DNA of 64,000 bases from Spirochaetota bacterium. Lineage in GTDB: Bacteria; Spirochaetota; UBA4802; UBA5550. A program made the position numbers and the translations under genes. This document shows, piece by piece, positions 10,190 through 13,568 of this stretch (position 1 is its first letter; the number at the start of each line of letters is the position of its first letter). The stretch covers positions 2,592,001-2,656,000 of the forward strand of contig OY760686.1 of NCBI GenBank assembly GCA_963663865.1. The letters run 5' to 3'. Under the pieces are notes generated by a model that saw nothing but the letters and a program-made list of their open reading frames with translations, was not told the origin of the DNA and did no database searches.

Positions 10190-10237
10190 AAAAAAGAAAA
10201 AGATTCCCCTTTCCGCTCTCCCAAGCGGAAAGGGGGA
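10190..10237 (-). terminator. Intrinsic terminator after the second flagellin
   Basis: CCCCTTTCCGCT-TGGGAG-AGCGGAAAGGGG hairpin followed by AATCTTTTTCTTTTTT. Confidence 0.8.
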
Positions 10238-10279: not shown

Positions 10280-11125
10280 TCATTCCAAAAGCTTCATAAT
10301 AAGCTTTGGCTTAAAATTAGCTTGAGCCAGCATCGCAGTACCAGTCTGAACGAGGATCTGGTCCCTTGTGTACTCAACCATCTGAGCAGCCATGTCCACA
10401 TCACGGACCCTTGAGTCCGCGGCCATCATATTTTCATATGAGAGCGTCAGTGCTGAGATCGCATTCTCCATCCTGTTGTAATAGGCCCCAAGATCTGCCC
10501 TCTGGCGATTTAGTCTCTCAAGAGCTAAATCAACATACCCGATCATTGAGTTTGCCTGTCCAACAGTTGAAATTGACCTCTTACTGTTGTTCTCATCCAG
10601 CAGATTCAAAGCCTGAGCCGAAATAGTACTAATGTACACGCGGATCCTCTGATGACTGTTAGCACCCACGTGAAAGAACATGCTTCCGACCTTGCTGCCT
10701 TTGGCGAAGGTCCCTGTGAGCATCTTCATTCTGTTGAACTCAGCCGATGTGGCGATGCGGTCAATCTCTTCAATCAGCTGGGATACCTCAACCTGAATCT
10801 GCATGCGGTCCGGGTTAGAGTATATTCCGTTTGCGGACTGAATTGAAAGCTGCCTTATCCTTTGAAGCATATCATTAACCTGCTGAAATGACCCCTCCGC
10901 AACCTGGATGAAAGAAAGCCCGTTTTGGGAATTCTTTTCAGCCTGGATCAGGCCGTTGATCTGGGTACGCATCTTTTCAGATACCGCCAGACCAGAAGCA
11001 TCATCTCCAGCCCGGTTAATAGCCTCACCGGAAGCAAGCTTTTCGATTGATTTGTCCATACGTGCCGCCACACTCTGCATCTGTCTGTTAGCGAAAATGG
11101 CGCTCATGTTGTGATTGATTCTCAT
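10280..11125 (-). CDS. flaB: Flagellin (spirochaete FlaB class), downstream copy
   Basis: [46 protein letters not shown]. Confidence 0.97.
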   Translation of the reverse strand: MRINHNMSAIFANRQMQSVAARMDKSIEKLASGEAINRAGDDASGLAVSEKMRTQINGLIQAEKNSQNGLSFIQVAEGSFQQVNDMLQRIRQLSIQSANGIYSNPDRMQIQVEVSQLIEEIDRIATSAEFNRMKMLTGTFAKGSKVGSMFFHVGANSHQRIRVYISTISAQALNLLDENNSKRSISTVGQANSMIGYVDLALERLNRQRADLGAYYNRMENAISALTLSYENMMAADSRVRDVDMAAQMVEYTRDQILVQTGTAMLAQANFKPKLIMKLLE

Positions 11126-11442
11126 AGAAACCCTCCCTTGATTTTTTCTGAACCACCGCTTCTATGATTTTTAAATGGCCCAGGTTTTCATCCGCACCAT
11201 CTTGACGCGGAAGGGACTTGCGAAAGTCCGAAGGTTGTCTCCTTGTAATGCCGCCTGAACTGCCCATAATCCAGACAACACCGGCCCCGGTTTTCCGGCA
11301 GCCGGTGATGCCCTCCCCTGATCATCACAAGCTGCCGGAAATGTCCGGCCTCTGTCCGCTGTAATACAACAGCGGCAGCATTGCTATCTGGGCAGTCACC
11401 GCAAATGGAGGTGAGAGAATCAATCGAGTTTTCAAAGAACCT
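11113..11442 (-). ncRNA. Candidate structured cis-regulatory leader of the downstream flagellin
   Basis: At least five internal stems plus a closing helix pairing 11402-11425 with the SD/start region 11113-11140; boxA at its 5' end. Confidence 0.6.
11428..11442 (-). promoter_or_regulatory. rrn-type boxA (NusB/NusE site)
   Basis: AGGTTCTTTGAAAAC; contains GTTCTTTGAAAAC, the Bacillus-type rRNA boxA. Confidence 0.6.
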
Positions 11443-11474
11443 GCACTAAAGCTTATTCGCAGTTTTCGTTTTCA

Positions 11475-12326
11475 TCAGCCGGCCAGTAGCCTTAAAGCTG
11501 TCTGGTTTTGTATATTAGCCTGGGCGAGCATCGCCGTACCGCTCTGAACAAGAACCTGATTTTTGGTGAAGTCTACCATTTCTTCAGCCATATCAGCATC
11601 TCTTATCCTGGACTCAGCGGCTTGAATGTTCTCAAACGCGGTCATGAGTCCTTTAGCGGTCATATCCAGCCTGTTGTAGTACGCACCGAGGTCTGCTCGC
11701 TGCTTGGAAAGTACCTGCAGGGCATTATCAAGAACTCCAATGGCTTCATTGGCTCCGCCAGGAGAGGAAAGCGAAAGGGATATTCTCCCTGTACCATCTG
11801 AAAACTTGAATGCCTGAGCAGTCATAGTTCCAATGTAAACTCTTTCTCTCTGGTTCTGGTTTGCACCGAGATGGAACCACATACTTGCCTTCGGATTAAT
11901 TTTTGAAAATTCTCCTGTAAGTACCTTGAATCTGTTAAACTCAGCAGTCGAAGCTACCCTGTTGACCTCGTCGACAAGAGCCGAAACCTCAACCTGAATA
12001 AGTTGACGGTCTGTGTTGGAATAAATTCCGTTAGCGGACTGAATTGAGAGTACCCTTATCCTCTGGATAATTGAAGCAGTCTGATTCAGATAGCCTTCAG
12101 CCGTCTGAACAAAAGACATACCGTCTTCGGTATTTCTCGCAGCCTGTCTCAAACCTTGAATCTGAGTCCTCATTTTTTCAGAAACCGCAAGACCGGAAGC
12201 GTCGTCTCCTGCCTTGTTGATTCTTTCGCCTGAAGCGAGCTTTTCCATGCTGCTCTGCACATTCCAGGTCGTAAACTTCAAAGTCCTGTTGGCATTAATT
12301 GCACTCATGTTGTGATTAATTATCAT
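11475..12326 (-). CDS. flaB: Flagellin (spirochaete FlaB class), upstream copy
   Basis: True start [14 protein letters not shown] at 12326 with AAGGAG SD; [18 protein letters not shown]; [10 protein letters not shown]. Confidence 0.97.
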
Positions 12327-12357
12327 TTTACACTCCTTTGTTTCTCTGTTTCTGTGT

Positions 12358-12371
12358 TGGCTTCCTTGCCA
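12358..12371 (-). promoter_or_regulatory. CsrA-binding hairpin in the flagellin leader
   Basis: TGGC-AAGGAA-GCCA, GGA in a hexaloop about 20 nt upstream of the SD, the typical flagellin CsrA arrangement. Confidence 0.7.
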
Positions 12372-12494
12372 GTATGGTCGAGGGCATAACCACATTTTTC
12401 AGCAGGTTGGGCAGTGCCCGGTTCCAGGCTTGTATCTGGGCTCATACAAACTTGCAACCTCGACTACACTCCCCGGACAGCAACTGATGAAAAC

Positions 12495-12508
12495 GTTTTC
12501 AAAGATCC
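12495..12508 (-). promoter_or_regulatory. rrn-type boxA in the leader of the upstream flagellin
   Basis: GGATCTTTGAAAAC, 7 nt after an AGCAGGGA-GTAA-TCCCTGCT GNRA hairpin (12516-12535). Confidence 0.6.
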
Positions 12509-12539
12509 GCGAATAAGCAGGGATTACTCCCTGCTCGAA

Positions 12540-12567
12540 ATGTCGTCACCTCTGGCCGTCAGGTTTA
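12540..12567 (-). promoter_or_regulatory. Putative sigma28 (FliA) promoter of the flagellin operon
   Basis: TAAA-N16-GACGACAT vs consensus TAAA-N15/16-GCCGATAA; predicted start falls at the 5' GNRA hairpin. Confidence 0.6.
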
Positions 12568-12752
12568 GCTCTATTATTGACAGTATAGCCCATTCTACAT
12601 TGTATAATGGATATTATGACGTATTTATGGCTTGTTTTGGCTATTTTTTAGCTTTTTTATGTTTTTTGATGTTTTTTGATGTTTTCCCGCATTTTTTTAT
12701 AAAAATGGGGGTGAATAAGGCGACAATAGCTACAACTGTTTATTGCTGTCGC

Positions 12753-13568
12753 CTAACGGGCTGACTGAAGCCTTTTTTTCAGGGTTGAAATCTGCTCCTT
12801 CCACATGCGGGCATAGTCAGTCCCCCATCTTTCGGGGGTAATTACGAGTTCAGCTTCACTCAGCTGTAAACCTGCCTCTCTGACGTTTCCGTTTTCAAGA
12901 AGGGCTTCTGCGTAGTGGATTCTATTTTGAGGAAAATCAGGAAAAAGCTCTACTGAGCGGGAAAGCATTTCGAGAGCATAGTCAATATCTCCAAAGCCTG
13001 TCGGCCACGCAGGAGCTTTCAGGTAGAGCATTCCCCCCACCCTTAACGGTCCTCCGCTGTCAATTGACTGATCTGTTACGGCATAATCAATAGCCTCCTT
13101 CATCGAAGAGAGCCTTCCTATCGCCGGGAGGCCTCTGATGGACAGCACTATGCCGCTGTTGACAGCATAGTAATACGCAGCTTCCCGCGACCCGCGCATC
13201 GCTCCGGCAGCCTCGGCGGCTTCAGCTCCGGCTTCAGCCGCCTTCAGTCGAAGATCATCATCTTTCTCTGATTCAGCGCACATGTAGGCGGCCCTTGACA
13301 TCGCAAGTGCCGCTGAGGTACTCCGGGCATCTTCCGCGCGCAGATACGAAGCAATCCTGTAAGCCTCGTACTTCCTGTCGAGGGATCGCGGCCTCTCCGA
13401 GTAGGCATGTACATAATCAATCAAAGCCTTTTTGTCAGAAATGGCTGAAATTATCACCCTGTCATTTGAATTGAGTTCGAACTTTATGTTCCCTGATCCT
13501 GAAGAACAGGCCGCAAAAATCATGGGAACAATACACAGAAATCTACTTATACCTGGCAATAACCTCAT
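12753..13568 (-). CDS. TPR-like helical lipoprotein, BstC / TRAP TatT-like
   Basis: Start ATG 13568 with GGGAGG SD; lipobox IFAAC; GGPLRVGGMLYLKAPAWPTGFGD motif; third gene of the MMPL triad. Confidence 0.75.
   Translation of the reverse strand: MRLLPGISRFLCIVPMIFAACSSGSGNIKFELNSNDRVIISAISDKKALIDYVHAYSERPRSLDRKYEAYRIASYLRAEDARSTSAALAMSRAAYMCAESEKDDDLRLKAAEAGAEAAEAAGAMRGSREAAYYYAVNSGIVLSIRGLPAIGRLSSMKEAIDYAVTDQSIDSGGPLRVGGMLYLKAPAWPTGFGDIDYALEMLSRSVELFPDFPQNRIHYAEALLENGNVREAGLQLSEAELVITPERWGTDYARMWKEQISTLKKRLQSAR

What the first reader, a model, noticed from the sequence alone, without database searches (positions are those of the whole stretch)
11113..11442. Second boxA followed by a long-range anti-SD/anti-start arm closing a ~310-nt structured leader
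Seen: right after boxA (GGUUCUUUGAAAAC) the mRNA reads GAUUGAUUCUC-UC-ACCUCCAUUUG (11425-11402). GAUUGAUUCUC is a perfect 11-nt complement of GAGAAUCAAUC (11123-11113, from the G of the AUG of the downstream flagellin), and CCUCC(A)UUUG pairs with the SD region CAAGGGAGG. The enclosed region is densely paired: ACUGCCCA/UGGGCAGU (11396-11389 with 11266-11259), hairpins at 11356-11375, 11293-11340 (10-bp plus 6-bp stems), 11214-11229 and 11191-11211, and an overlapping GUUGUCU/AGACAAC stem that could be a switch or pseudoknot. I do not recognise it as a known riboswitch. Inference: a novel translational control element that keeps the second flagellin off until a ligand, protein or cleavage event opens it, again with boxA placed at the arm to be delivered.
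Basis: partly seen in the sequence, partly recalled or inferred. Interest (0 to 1): 0.85.

Follow-up and report, generated by a model that had tools for sequence, protein, structure and literature searches.

The report
boxA-led structured flagellin leader RNA
Between two flagellin genes of an uncultured spirochaete lies a conserved, roughly 315-base folded RNA that starts with the ribosomal-RNA "boxA" signal and ends by pairing with the next gene's start codon, which looks like a new kind of switch for flagellin synthesis.

Summary
The 11-nt arm 11425-11415 is a perfect complement of 11123-11113, which runs from the G of the flagellin-2 AUG. The leader folds far better than shuffles (z -5.5), is single-copy in its genome, and matches no Rfam family.

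Homologous leaders precede the same flagellin paralogue across one Spirochaetota order: 55 distinct sequences and 16 of 16 sampled order genomes, against 1 of 134 elsewhere in the phylum. All 55 keep 6-13 contiguous arm/start base pairs, with compensatory changes.

The motif is a genuine boxA look-alike. Its 14-mer is identical to the one in both rRNA leaders of the same genome, and three relatives carry near-identical rRNA boxAs. The enclosed domain has about nine helices with strong covariation and an invariant Shine-Dalgarno-like GGGAGGG loop.

Best reading: a new cis-regulatory leader that sequesters the ribosome-binding site, with a Nus-factor loading site at its 5' edge. The function and the trigger are inferred, not shown. 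boxA-led flagellin leaders also occur upstream of other flagellin paralogues and in Treponema-like genomes.

The parts
11475..12326 (-). Flagellin-1 CDS (FlaB-type, begins MIINHN). Its stop codon at 11477-11475 lies 35 nt before the boxA.
   Evidence: Flagellin_N and Flagellin_C Pfam domains. In 54 of 55 related loci the upstream gene is a flagellin ending 12-55 nt before the boxA.
11427..11441 (-). boxA-like element GGTTCTTTGAAAACT, a putative NusB/NusE loading site.
   Evidence: The 14-mer at 11440-11427 is identical to the motif about 100 nt upstream of both 16S genes of the same genome. Only 8 loose matches exist genome-wide. Relatives' rRNA leaders carry G(T/C)TCTTTGAAAACTG 88-97 nt before 16S. 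The element is present in 29 of 30 first-round loci.
11415..11425 (-). P1 5' strand: the anti-start arm GATTGATTCTC.
   Evidence: 100% complement of 11123-11113. The arm core GAUUCUCA is kept in relatives, with 43-50 of 50 rows canonical per pair and 6-13 contiguous bp in 55 of 55 leaders.
11402..11412 (-). Anti-SD tract ACCTCCATTTG.
   Evidence: Pairs with CAAGGGAGG in the duplex fold. A pyrimidine tract is present in most relatives (mean -13.6 against -9.1 kcal/mol for shuffles; 27 of 55 below the 5% level).
11389..11396 (-). 5' strand of the long-range/pseudoknot pairing (ACTGCCCA).
   Evidence: 8-nt perfect complement of 11266-11259. A2 columns 63-68 with 201-206 are 95% paired; 4 pairs vary on one side and 1 on both sides.
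11293..11340 (-). P4: an 18-bp hairpin whose loop carries the SD-like GGGAGGG (11317-11311).
   Evidence: 97.9% of cells paired, and 14 of 18 pairs have changes on both sides. The loop GGGAGGG is invariant or nearly so in the 29 BLAST-found leaders.
11253..11276 (-). P5 hairpin (GTCTGGA / TTCAGGC). Its conserved loop TATGGGCAG is the partner of 11396-11389.
   Evidence: Column pair 194/209 reads GC 34, UA 10, GU 4, UG 2. Column pair 195/208 reads GC 40, AU 5, GU 5.
11231..11244 (-). P6: AAGG-AGACAA-CCTT, which contains a GGA motif.
   Evidence: 99% paired. Two closely related rows carry GGGG/CCCC.
11148..11229 (-). Three 3' hairpins with the spacer GAAAACC: P7 11229-11214, P8 11211-11191, and P9 11183-11148 with an A-rich loop.
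   Evidence: MFE fold. The same three-hairpin layout appears in single-sequence folds of 51 of 55 leaders, although the stem sequences differ.
11131..11139 (-). Shine-Dalgarno AAGGGAGGG of flagellin-2.
   Evidence: Position relative to the ATG. AGGGAGG is conserved in all aligned leaders.
11113..11125 (-). Start codon ATG (11125-11123) and the P1 3' strand (11123-11113, codons 1-5).
   Evidence: Both AGA-to-AGG codon changes are matched by U-to-C in the arm (2 of 2). The -1 base covaries with the arm (13 of 23 paired against 6.9 +/- 1.6 expected, 0 of 2000 shuffles).
10280..11125 (-). Flagellin-2 CDS (FlaB-type, begins MRINHN), the regulated gene.
   Evidence: Flagellin_N and Flagellin_C Pfam domains.
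10206..10235 (-). Intrinsic-terminator-like hairpin after flagellin-2 (13-bp stem followed by a T run).
   Evidence: No such site lies between flagellin-1 and the leader.

Best explanation
This is a lineage-specific cis-regulatory RNA of about 315 nt (window 11441-11113, minus strand). It sits between two tandem flaB-type flagellin genes.

It has three parts:
1. At its 5' edge, an rRNA-type boxA. This is inferred to load NusB/NusE and the Nus complex onto the elongating polymerase.
2. Directly after it, a bipartite arm. Across about 290 nt the arm pairs with the start codon and first codons (P1) and with the Shine-Dalgarno sequence of flagellin-2.
3. Enclosed between them, a domain of about 250 nt with roughly nine helices. 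It includes a loop-to-5'-strand pseudoknot and a hairpin that presents an SD-like GGGAGGG loop.

Shown: the sequence elements, their conservation and the base-pair covariation.

Inferred:
- The closed form blocks ribosome entry, so flagellin-2 is translationally off by default.
- boxA protects the long untranslated spacer from Rho, and/or keeps the 5' arm tethered to the polymerase so that P1 closes as soon as the ribosome-binding site is made.
- A trans factor acting on the enclosed domain opens or locks the gate. The leading candidate is the CsrA/FliW system; a ligand or a nuclease are alternatives.
For: Structure:
- Fold z-score -5.5.
- On 50 leaders, 96.4% of cells are paired, against 28-44% when the partners are slid. 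21 pairs have double changes against 8.3 in shuffles, 0 of 500 shuffles as high.
- The 3' part forms three hairpins in 51 of 55 leaders.

RBS sequestration:
- The arm/RBS duplex averages -27.3 against -12.8 kcal/mol for shuffles. 51 of 55 leaders have at most 2 of 200 shuffles as low.
- 55 of 55 leaders have 6-13 contiguous bp.
- Compensatory changes occur at the AGA/AGG codon (2 of 2) and at position -1, where four Watson-Crick pair types appear.

boxA:
- The 14-mer is identical to that in both rRNA leaders of the same genome.
- rRNA leaders of 3 of 3 relatives examined carry the same core.
- NusB and Rho are encoded.
- Published work shows boxA regulating a non-rRNA gene (PMC5725501, abstract and section 13) and Nus/SuhB acting as an RNA chaperone that forms a loop between boxA and RNAP (PMC6614797, passages).

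Context:
- The gene order is flagellin-flagellin-flaG-fliD.
- No terminator lies before the leader and a strong one follows flagellin-2.
- fliW-csrA is present.

Distribution:
- 16 of 16 sampled genomes of the order, against 1 of 134 elsewhere in the phylum.
- Single copy in the genome.

Not coding: the internal ORF varies from 7 to more than 55 aa.
Against: - There are no data on expression, RNA 5' ends, binding or probing. Metatranscriptome contigs show only that 11290-11022 occurs contiguously in an RNA library at depth 2, which could be DNA carry-over.
- The P1 3' strand is coding, so its conservation is not independent evidence. The sequences are related, so covariation counts overstate the number of events.
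- The loop motifs in loci L032-L073 were selected by the search pattern.
- The anti-SD half is significant in only 27 of 55 leaders.
- The pseudoknot has one doubly compensated pair.
- boxA itself could pair with the SD (UUCUUUG with CAAGGGA, 95% canonical, no covariation), so the motif might be conserved for that reason.
- The GGA motifs are not the canonical AAGGAU hairpins seen in front of two other flagellin genes of this genome.
Confidence: 0.6

Rival explanations
1. The leader is mainly a CsrA/FliW-responsive element of the hag/flaB type. CsrA binds the GGA motifs in the P4 loop, in P6 and at the SD, and FliW relieves it when flagellin is exported. On this view boxA and P1 are accessory.
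For: fliW and csrA are adjacent in the genome. GGA-containing motifs lie in a hairpin loop (GGGAGGG), in AAGGAG and in the SD. Two other flagellin genes of this genome have textbook AAGGAUG hairpins plus an SD. A Treponema-like boxA leader carries such a hairpin. CsrA sites near the flaB SD are reported in T. denticola (PMC9481697, passage).
Against: The motifs here are GGGAGGG and AGGGAGG, not the AAGGAU type. About 170 nt separate the P4 loop from the SD. A 250-nt domain of nine helices with a pseudoknot is far more than CsrA sites need. This reading is not exclusive of the main one.
Confidence: 0.25
2. It is a riboswitch. The enclosed domain is an aptamer for a small molecule, and ligand binding stabilises or opens P1.
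For: The element has a multi-helix domain, a pseudoknot and invariant unpaired nucleotides (the loops UAUGGGCA and CAUGAUG, the spacer GAAAAACC), and its closing helix doubles as the expression platform. No known riboswitch family matches.
Against: There is only one gene association (one flagellin paralogue) and no metabolic or transport genes to hint at a ligand. The range is a single order. There is no ligand candidate.
Confidence: 0.15
3. P1 plus the anti-SD helix is an RNase III-type processing stem. Like the stem next to boxA that flanks 16S rRNA, it would cut the bicistronic flagellin transcript and so set the ratio of the two flagellins.
For: The layout matches rRNA operons: boxA lies just 5' of one strand of a long-range helix. 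The arm/RBS duplex has about 20 paired positions with internal loops. No terminator or recognisable promoter lies between the two flagellin genes. Nus factors are linked to RNase III processing (PMC6614797, passage).
Against: Cleavage in P1 would cut inside codons 1-5 and destroy the flagellin-2 message. No cleavage data exist, and I did not search for RNase III.
Confidence: 0.12
4. The boxA-like motif acts as DNA (an operator or promoter element), or only as an RNA strand that pairs with the SD. On this view it is not a Nus-factor site.
For: A -10-like box (GAGTAAG, TATTAC) lies 6-12 nt upstream in many loci. UUCUUUG can pair with CAAGGGA.
Against: The same 14-mer sits in both rRNA leaders, where boxA is expected. 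No CodY-type regulator is encoded. The motif precedes three different flagellin leader types whose downstream sequences are unrelated.
Confidence: 0.08

Closest known systems
rRNA operon leader: boxA, the Nus antitermination/chaperone complex and the 16S processing stem
   Same: The boxA sequence is identical to this genome's own rRNA leaders. boxA lies a few bases 5' of one strand of a long-range helix that closes a large structured domain.
   Different: The enclosed RNA is an mRNA leader, not rRNA, and the 3' strand of the helix is a ribosome-binding site. No boxC is evident. Nus binding and RNase III cleavage are untested.
E. coli suhB boxA (Baniulyte et al. 2017, PMC5725501)
   Same: A boxA in front of a protein-coding gene. 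There it represses translation and sets up Rho termination (abstract).
   Different: That boxA lies within about 50 nt of the start codon (section 13). Here it lies 315 nt upstream and is brought next to the start only by the P1 fold. 'flagell' occurs 0 times in that paper's main text, and I could not see its supplements.
CsrA-FliW control of flagellin mRNAs (B. subtilis hag as recalled; spirochaete flaB, PMC9481697 and PMC12327847 from the search listing)
   Same: The target is a flagellin mRNA, GGA motifs lie in a hairpin loop and at the SD, and fliW-csrA is present.
   Different: Known CsrA leaders are short with two sites. This one is about 315 nt with about ten helices, a pseudoknot, an intrinsic anti-RBS helix and a boxA.
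Translational riboswitches and RNA leaders that sequester the SD
   Same: A conserved structured domain whose closing helix hides the SD and start codon.
   Different: There is no known ligand and no Rfam match. The anti-RBS strand is 290 nt away and is preceded by boxA.
Flagellar-gene RNA motifs in Rfam (Termite-flg, flg-Rhizobiales; names recalled)
   Same: Candidate structured RNAs upstream of flagellar genes.
   Different: No Rfam family matched 10900-12800 even at E up to 10, other than three chance snoRNA/miRNA rows.

Membership tests
rRNA-type boxA (NusB/NusE site) | Sequence matches the boxA of the organism's own rRNA leaders | tested here: met
   GTTCTTTGAAAACT is identical in the flagellin-2 leader and in both rRNA leaders. 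Relatives' rRNA leaders share TCTTTGAAAACTG.
rRNA-type boxA (NusB/NusE site) | Nus factors and Rho are encoded | tested here: met
   NusB domain at E 7.7e-37. Rho RNA-binding domain at E 2.5e-35. I did not search for NusA, NusG, NusE or SuhB.
rRNA-type boxA (NusB/NusE site) | The motif is transcribed and bound by NusB/NusE, with an effect on elongation or folding | not testable with these tools
   RNA-library contigs cover only 11290-11022. There are no binding data.
Any Rfam 15 family | Covariance-model match at or above the gathering score | tested here: not met
   0 matches in the whole window. There was no relevant match at E up to 10.
CsrA-regulated flagellin leader | GGA in a hairpin loop plus GGA overlapping the SD | tested here: inconclusive
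   GGGAGGG in the P4 loop and AAGGGAGGG at the SD both contain GGA. They are about 170 nt apart and are not of the AAGGAU type seen at two other flagellin genes.
CsrA-regulated flagellin leader | csrA and fliW are present in the genome | tested here: met
   Adjacent genes at G000:C1 2131805-2132365.
Riboswitch | Conserved multi-helix fold with covariation, plus an expression platform | tested here: met
Riboswitch | Specific small-molecule ligand | not testable with these tools
   No ligand candidate follows from the gene context.
suhB-type boxA translational repression | boxA within about 50 nt of the start codon | tested here: not met
   boxA lies 315 nt upstream of the ATG. It is adjacent only in the folded form.
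Dispersed repeat or mobile element | Several copies in the genome | tested here: not met
   One place in the 3.16-Mb genome. There is one R1 locus per genome; the second hits are the same hairpin on the other strand.

The most novel reading that the evidence does not exclude
Spirochaete flagellin mRNAs have captured the rRNA transcription antitermination/chaperone machinery. A boxA-bound Nus complex rides with RNA polymerase through a long untranslated spacer. It then delivers the adjacent anti-RBS arm to the ribosome-binding site the moment that site is transcribed, so the on/off decision for each flagellin paralogue is made co-transcriptionally. The same design (boxA, then a 5' anti-SD arm closing a structured domain) recurs with unrelated sequences in Treponema-like genomes. 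It would therefore be a phylum-wide principle of flagellin stoichiometry control.
Probability: 0.3. Interest if true: 0.9.

Novelty: new variant of a known kind. Interest (0 to 1): 0.72.

Why it matters
How spirochaetes set the ratios of their several FlaB flagellins is an open question. Known control rests on sigma factors and on CsrA/FliW.

A large, covariation-supported leader RNA with a built-in anti-RBS helix would add a new regulatory layer. It would also be a new structured RNA family that is absent from Rfam.

The boxA at its edge is the more general point. It would be a natural case of the Nus/boxA system acting on a structured mRNA leader with a long-range helix, which is the geometry for which the 'RNA chaperone/looping' model of rRNA folding was proposed. 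That model could then be tested on a small, reporter-friendly RNA.

The association of boxA with flagellin leaders also extends to Treponema-like genomes, which are experimentally tractable.

Tried and rejected
- **Rfam:** nothing in the whole window at gathering score, and only chance snoRNA/miRNA rows at E up to 10.
- **Dispersed repeat:** rejected, since there is a single copy.
- **Small ORF starting at the invariant AUGGGCAG:** rejected. ORF lengths run from 7 to more than 55 aa with no conserved frame.
- **A local anti-start pairing in this genome** (UCAUAGAA 11167-11160 with UUCUAUGA 11129-11122): not conserved (mean -4.9 against -4.3 kcal/mol for shuffles; 9 of 55 leaders below 10 of 200 shuffles). 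I treat it as chance.
not conserved.
- **CodY-like operator reading of the motif:** no CodY HTH domain is encoded.
- **Sigma-70 promoter scan:** no hit on the minus strand inside the leader. My by-eye sigma-28 and -10 readings upstream of both boxAs are unverified.
- **An anti-start arm in the flagellin-1 leader and in the third boxA leader of this genome:** no significant arm/start duplex (140 of 200 and 30 of 200 shuffles as low).
- **A clean P3 helix flanking P4:** the alignment is too noisy and alternative pairings exist, so this is left open.
- **RNAalifold on the MAFFT alignments** missed the variable 3' hairpins. I used single-sequence folds instead.
- **Metatranscriptome contigs (X1, X2, X3, X5):** only short pieces, and none spans from flagellin-1 to flagellin-2. 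They say nothing about transcript ends, and the uncovered stretch 11291-11462 is not evidence of absence.
- **The one R1 hit outside the order (G088):** it lies on a 1.8-kb contig identical to L043 and may be a binning error.
- **Literature:** searches for boxA+flagellin+NusB (2 reviews), boxA+antitermination+spirochete (0 papers) and RNA motif+flagellin+Spirochaet+covariation (nothing relevant) found no description of this element. Supplements of PMC5725501, which list boxA-associated genes, could not be seen.
Full report
**Setting**

On the minus strand the window carries, in order, flagellin-1 (12326-11475), a 349-nt spacer, flagellin-2 (11125-10280), flaG (10160-9828) and fliD (9534-7507). 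The ORFs come and the Pfam assignments. The finding concerns the spacer.

**Observation**

- GGTTCTTTGAAAAC lies at 11441-11428.
- GATTGATTCTC at 11425-11415 is a perfect complement of 11123-11113, which begins at the G of the ATG.
- CCTCC..TTTG at 11411-11402 faces CAAGGGAGG.
- ACTGCCCA/TGGGCAGT pairs 11396-11389 with 11266-11259.
- The named hairpins are present.

The 370-nt RNA folds to -140 kcal/mol, against -110.4 +/- 5.4 for dinucleotide shuffles (z -5.5, 0 of 100 as low). The 11-bp closing helix appears in both the MFE and the centroid structures.

**Not a known family, not a repeat, not coding**

Rfam 15 gives no match in the window at gathering score, and only three chance rows at E up to 10 in 10900-12800. 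The spacer occurs once in the 3.16-Mb genome. The ORF that starts at the invariant AUGGGCAG has lengths from 7 to more than 55 aa among homologues and keeps no frame.

**Conservation**

- A BLAST-type search of 40 related genomes from seven families of one order found the block 11340-11090 at 70-79% identity. It matched over its whole length in 28 genomes and over part of it in 7 more, always in front of a flagellin that begins ATGAGAATCAATCAC.
- An exact-pattern scan of 185,579 species genomes found 42 further loci. All come from records labelled Spirochaetota/Spirochaetes or, by some submitters, Leptospirales, and nearly all are MAGs.
- Together these gave 67 leaders, 55 of them distinct.
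- A covariance model of the P4-P6 core hit 16 of 16 sampled genomes of the order. Elsewhere in the phylum it hit 1 of 134, and that one hit is on a 1.8-kb contig that may be mis-binned.

**The closing helix**

- All 55 leaders have 6-13 contiguous base pairs between the 50 nt that follow boxA and the start region.
- The duplex between the 40 nt after boxA and positions -22 to +20 averages -27.3 kcal/mol, against -12.8 for shuffled targets. 51 of 55 leaders have at most 2 of 200 shuffles as low. The duplex is bipartite, covering the start codon and the SD.
- The 3' strand is coding, so its constancy proves nothing. The evidence is that the non-coding arm follows it.
  - Both leaders with an AGG instead of an AGA second codon have C instead of U in the arm (column pair 33/368: UA 48, CG 2).
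  - Variants of codons 3-5 (AUCGG, AUCAG) face matching arms in L018, L066 and L035.
  - Among the 23 leaders whose helix covers the A and U of the AUG, the free -1 base is paired in 13, with A-U, U-A, G-C and C-G all present. Shuffles give 6.9 +/- 1.6, and 0 of 2000 reach 13 (3 of the 55 leaders were left out because the arm motif was not found).
- The anti-SD half is weaker: -13.6 against -9.1 kcal/mol, with 27 of 55 leaders below the 5% level.

**The enclosed domain**

I used an alignment of 50 leaders. Five with long inserts were dropped (L005, L010, L014, L037, L067). The structure I named comprised P1, the pseudoknot, P4, P5 and P6.
- It has 96.4% of cells paired, against 28-44% when the partners are slid by 1-3 columns.
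- It has 21 pairs with changes on both sides, against 8.3 +/- 1.6 in shuffles (0 of 500 as high).
- P4 is an 18-bp hairpin with double changes in 14 pairs. Its loop carries an SD-like GGGAGGG. This loop is invariant or nearly so in the 29 leaders found by BLAST. In the pattern-found loci the motif was required by the search, so their invariance does not count.
- P5 covaries strongly (GC 34, UA 10, GU 4, UG 2 at one pair). Its loop UAUGGGCAG is complementary to the conserved 5' ACUGYCC. That pairing is 95% canonical, mostly through one-sided Y-G changes, with one double change.
- Downstream of P6, single-sequence folds give the same three hairpins in 51 of 55 leaders although the stem sequences differ.
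The hairpin at 11375-11356 lies in an insert peculiar to this genome.

**Is it a boxA?**

- In this genome GTTCTTTGAAAACT occurs about 100 nt upstream of both 16S genes and in the flagellin-2 leader. A looser 12-mer pattern has only 8 hits in 3.16 Mb: 2 at rRNA, 2 in flagellin leaders, 1 in an unrelated spacer and 3 inside or antisense to genes.
- In three relatives with an assembled 16S, the rRNA leader carries TTCTTTGAAAACTG or GCTCTTTGAAAACTG 88-97 nt before the 16S gene.
- NusB and Rho are encoded, and CodY is not.
- The E. coli rRNA boxA core and the gammaproteobacterial consensus printed in PMC6614797 and PMC5725501 share the CTCTTT core.
- So the label boxA is well founded as a sequence statement. 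Binding is untested.

**boxA and flagellin genes more widely**

- The flagellin-1 leader has GATCTTTGAAAAC at 12507-12495. A boxA-like motif lies 172-270 nt before the flagellin-1 ATG in 47 of 52 correctly anchored loci. Four of the five misses had under 180 nt of upstream sequence.
- A second tandem flagellin pair elsewhere in this genome has GCTCTTTGAAAAC about 20 nt after the first gene's stop and 163 nt before the second ATG.
- Two further flagellin genes lack boxA and instead have classic AAGGAUG hairpins plus an SD.
- Across 301 genomes of the phylum, the pattern 'boxA core, 120-320 nt, flagellin start' occurs in 51, while the reversed control pattern occurs in none. The 51 are this genome, 35 of 45 other genomes of the order, and 15 of 255 genomes outside it. 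The 15 include 11 of 28 in a family of 1.1-2.9-Mb, Treponema-like genomes.
- In those genomes the rRNA leader motif differs from the flaB-leader motif by one or two bases.
- Their leaders are unrelated in sequence to this one. Even so, the MFE again closes a 5' anti-SD arm just after the boxA-like motif onto the SD. In L094 the duplex is -25.9 against -12.7 kcal/mol with 0 of 200 shuffles as low. L091 and L090 are weaker, at 15 and 33 of 200.
- The L094 gene starts with the 21 bases of a primer for T. denticola flaB3. That gene lies inside the flaB1 operon according to PMC9481697 (passages), so it is another intercistronic setting.

**Transcription context**

- In 54 of 55 loci the upstream gene is a flagellin whose stop lies 12-55 nt before the boxA.
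- No terminator-like site lies there, no sigma-70-type promoter is found on this strand inside the leader, and a strong terminator follows flagellin-2.
- The element is therefore most likely intercistronic, possibly with an additional promoter overlapping the end of flagellin-1. A -10-like box lies 6-12 nt before boxA, but that is my reading and is unverified.
- RNA-library contigs cover 11290-11022 without differences, at depth 2. This is a weak sign that the 3' half of the leader is transcribed together with the gene.

**Mechanism**

Shown: a conserved fold in which the start codon and usually the SD are paired with an arm placed 3-10 nt after an rRNA-type boxA.

Inferred:
- The closed form blocks initiation.
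- boxA loads Nus factors, which shield about 300 nt of untranslated RNA from Rho and/or keep the arm at the polymerase so that P1 forms as the ribosome-binding site emerges. This is the looping/chaperone model described for rRNA (PMC6614797).
- Alternatively, the fold places a bulky Nus complex next to the RBS, as at suhB (PMC5725501).
- The trigger is unknown. My ranking is CsrA/FliW first, since the genes are present and GGA motifs lie in the P4 loop, P6 and the SD. A small ligand comes next, then nuclease processing of P1.

**Verdict**

This is a real, new structured leader RNA family with an unusual and well-supported boxA association. The function is plausible but untested.

Noticed in passing
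window 12508-12495 (minus strand), with a hairpin at 12534-12517: The flagellin-1 leader also carries a boxA-like GGATCTTTGAAAAC 181 nt before its ATG, preceded by the hairpin GCAGGGA-GTAA-TCCCTGC. A boxA-like motif is conserved at this place in 47 of 52 related loci. No anti-start arm was detectable here (140 of 200 shuffles fold as low).
   Followed up: partly
window 12567-12540 (minus strand): By eye, TAAA-N16-GACGACAT resembles a sigma-28 promoter just upstream of the flagellin-1 leader. No tool verified this.
   Followed up: no
G000:C1 142892-144800 (outside the window): A second tandem pair of flagellin genes. The variant boxA GCTCTTTGAAAAC lies about 20 nt after the first gene's stop and 163 nt before the second ATG. 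Relatives share this third leader type, which contains TGCAAGCA...ATGGTTGC.
   Followed up: partly
G000:C1 upstream of 142892 and 2959583 (outside the window): These two flagellin genes lack boxA. They have short leaders with textbook CsrA-type AAGGAUG hairpin loops plus an SD. One has CCGATAT, a sigma-28-like -10 box.
   Followed up: no
L094, L091, L090, L097 (Treponema-like genomes, family f21 and others): GATCTTTGAAAA lies about 200 nt before a flaB start. The predicted folds close a 5' anti-SD arm onto the SD. L094 and L097 also carry a CAGCAAAGGAUGCUG hairpin. The rRNA leaders of these genomes carry GATATTTGA rather than the exact motif.
   Followed up: partly
window 10235-10206 (minus strand): A strong terminator-like hairpin (13 bp followed by a T run) lies between flagellin-2 and flaG. 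flaG-fliD may therefore be a separate or attenuated unit.
   Followed up: no
window 12690-12655 (minus strand): Two to three tandem copies of a 10-nt unit (ATCAAAAAAC) lie in the A-rich region upstream of the flagellin-1 leader.
   Followed up: no
window 11167-11160 with 11129-11122: An 8-nt perfect complement between the P9 loop and the spacer/AUG in this genome only. It is not conserved in relatives.
   Followed up: yes
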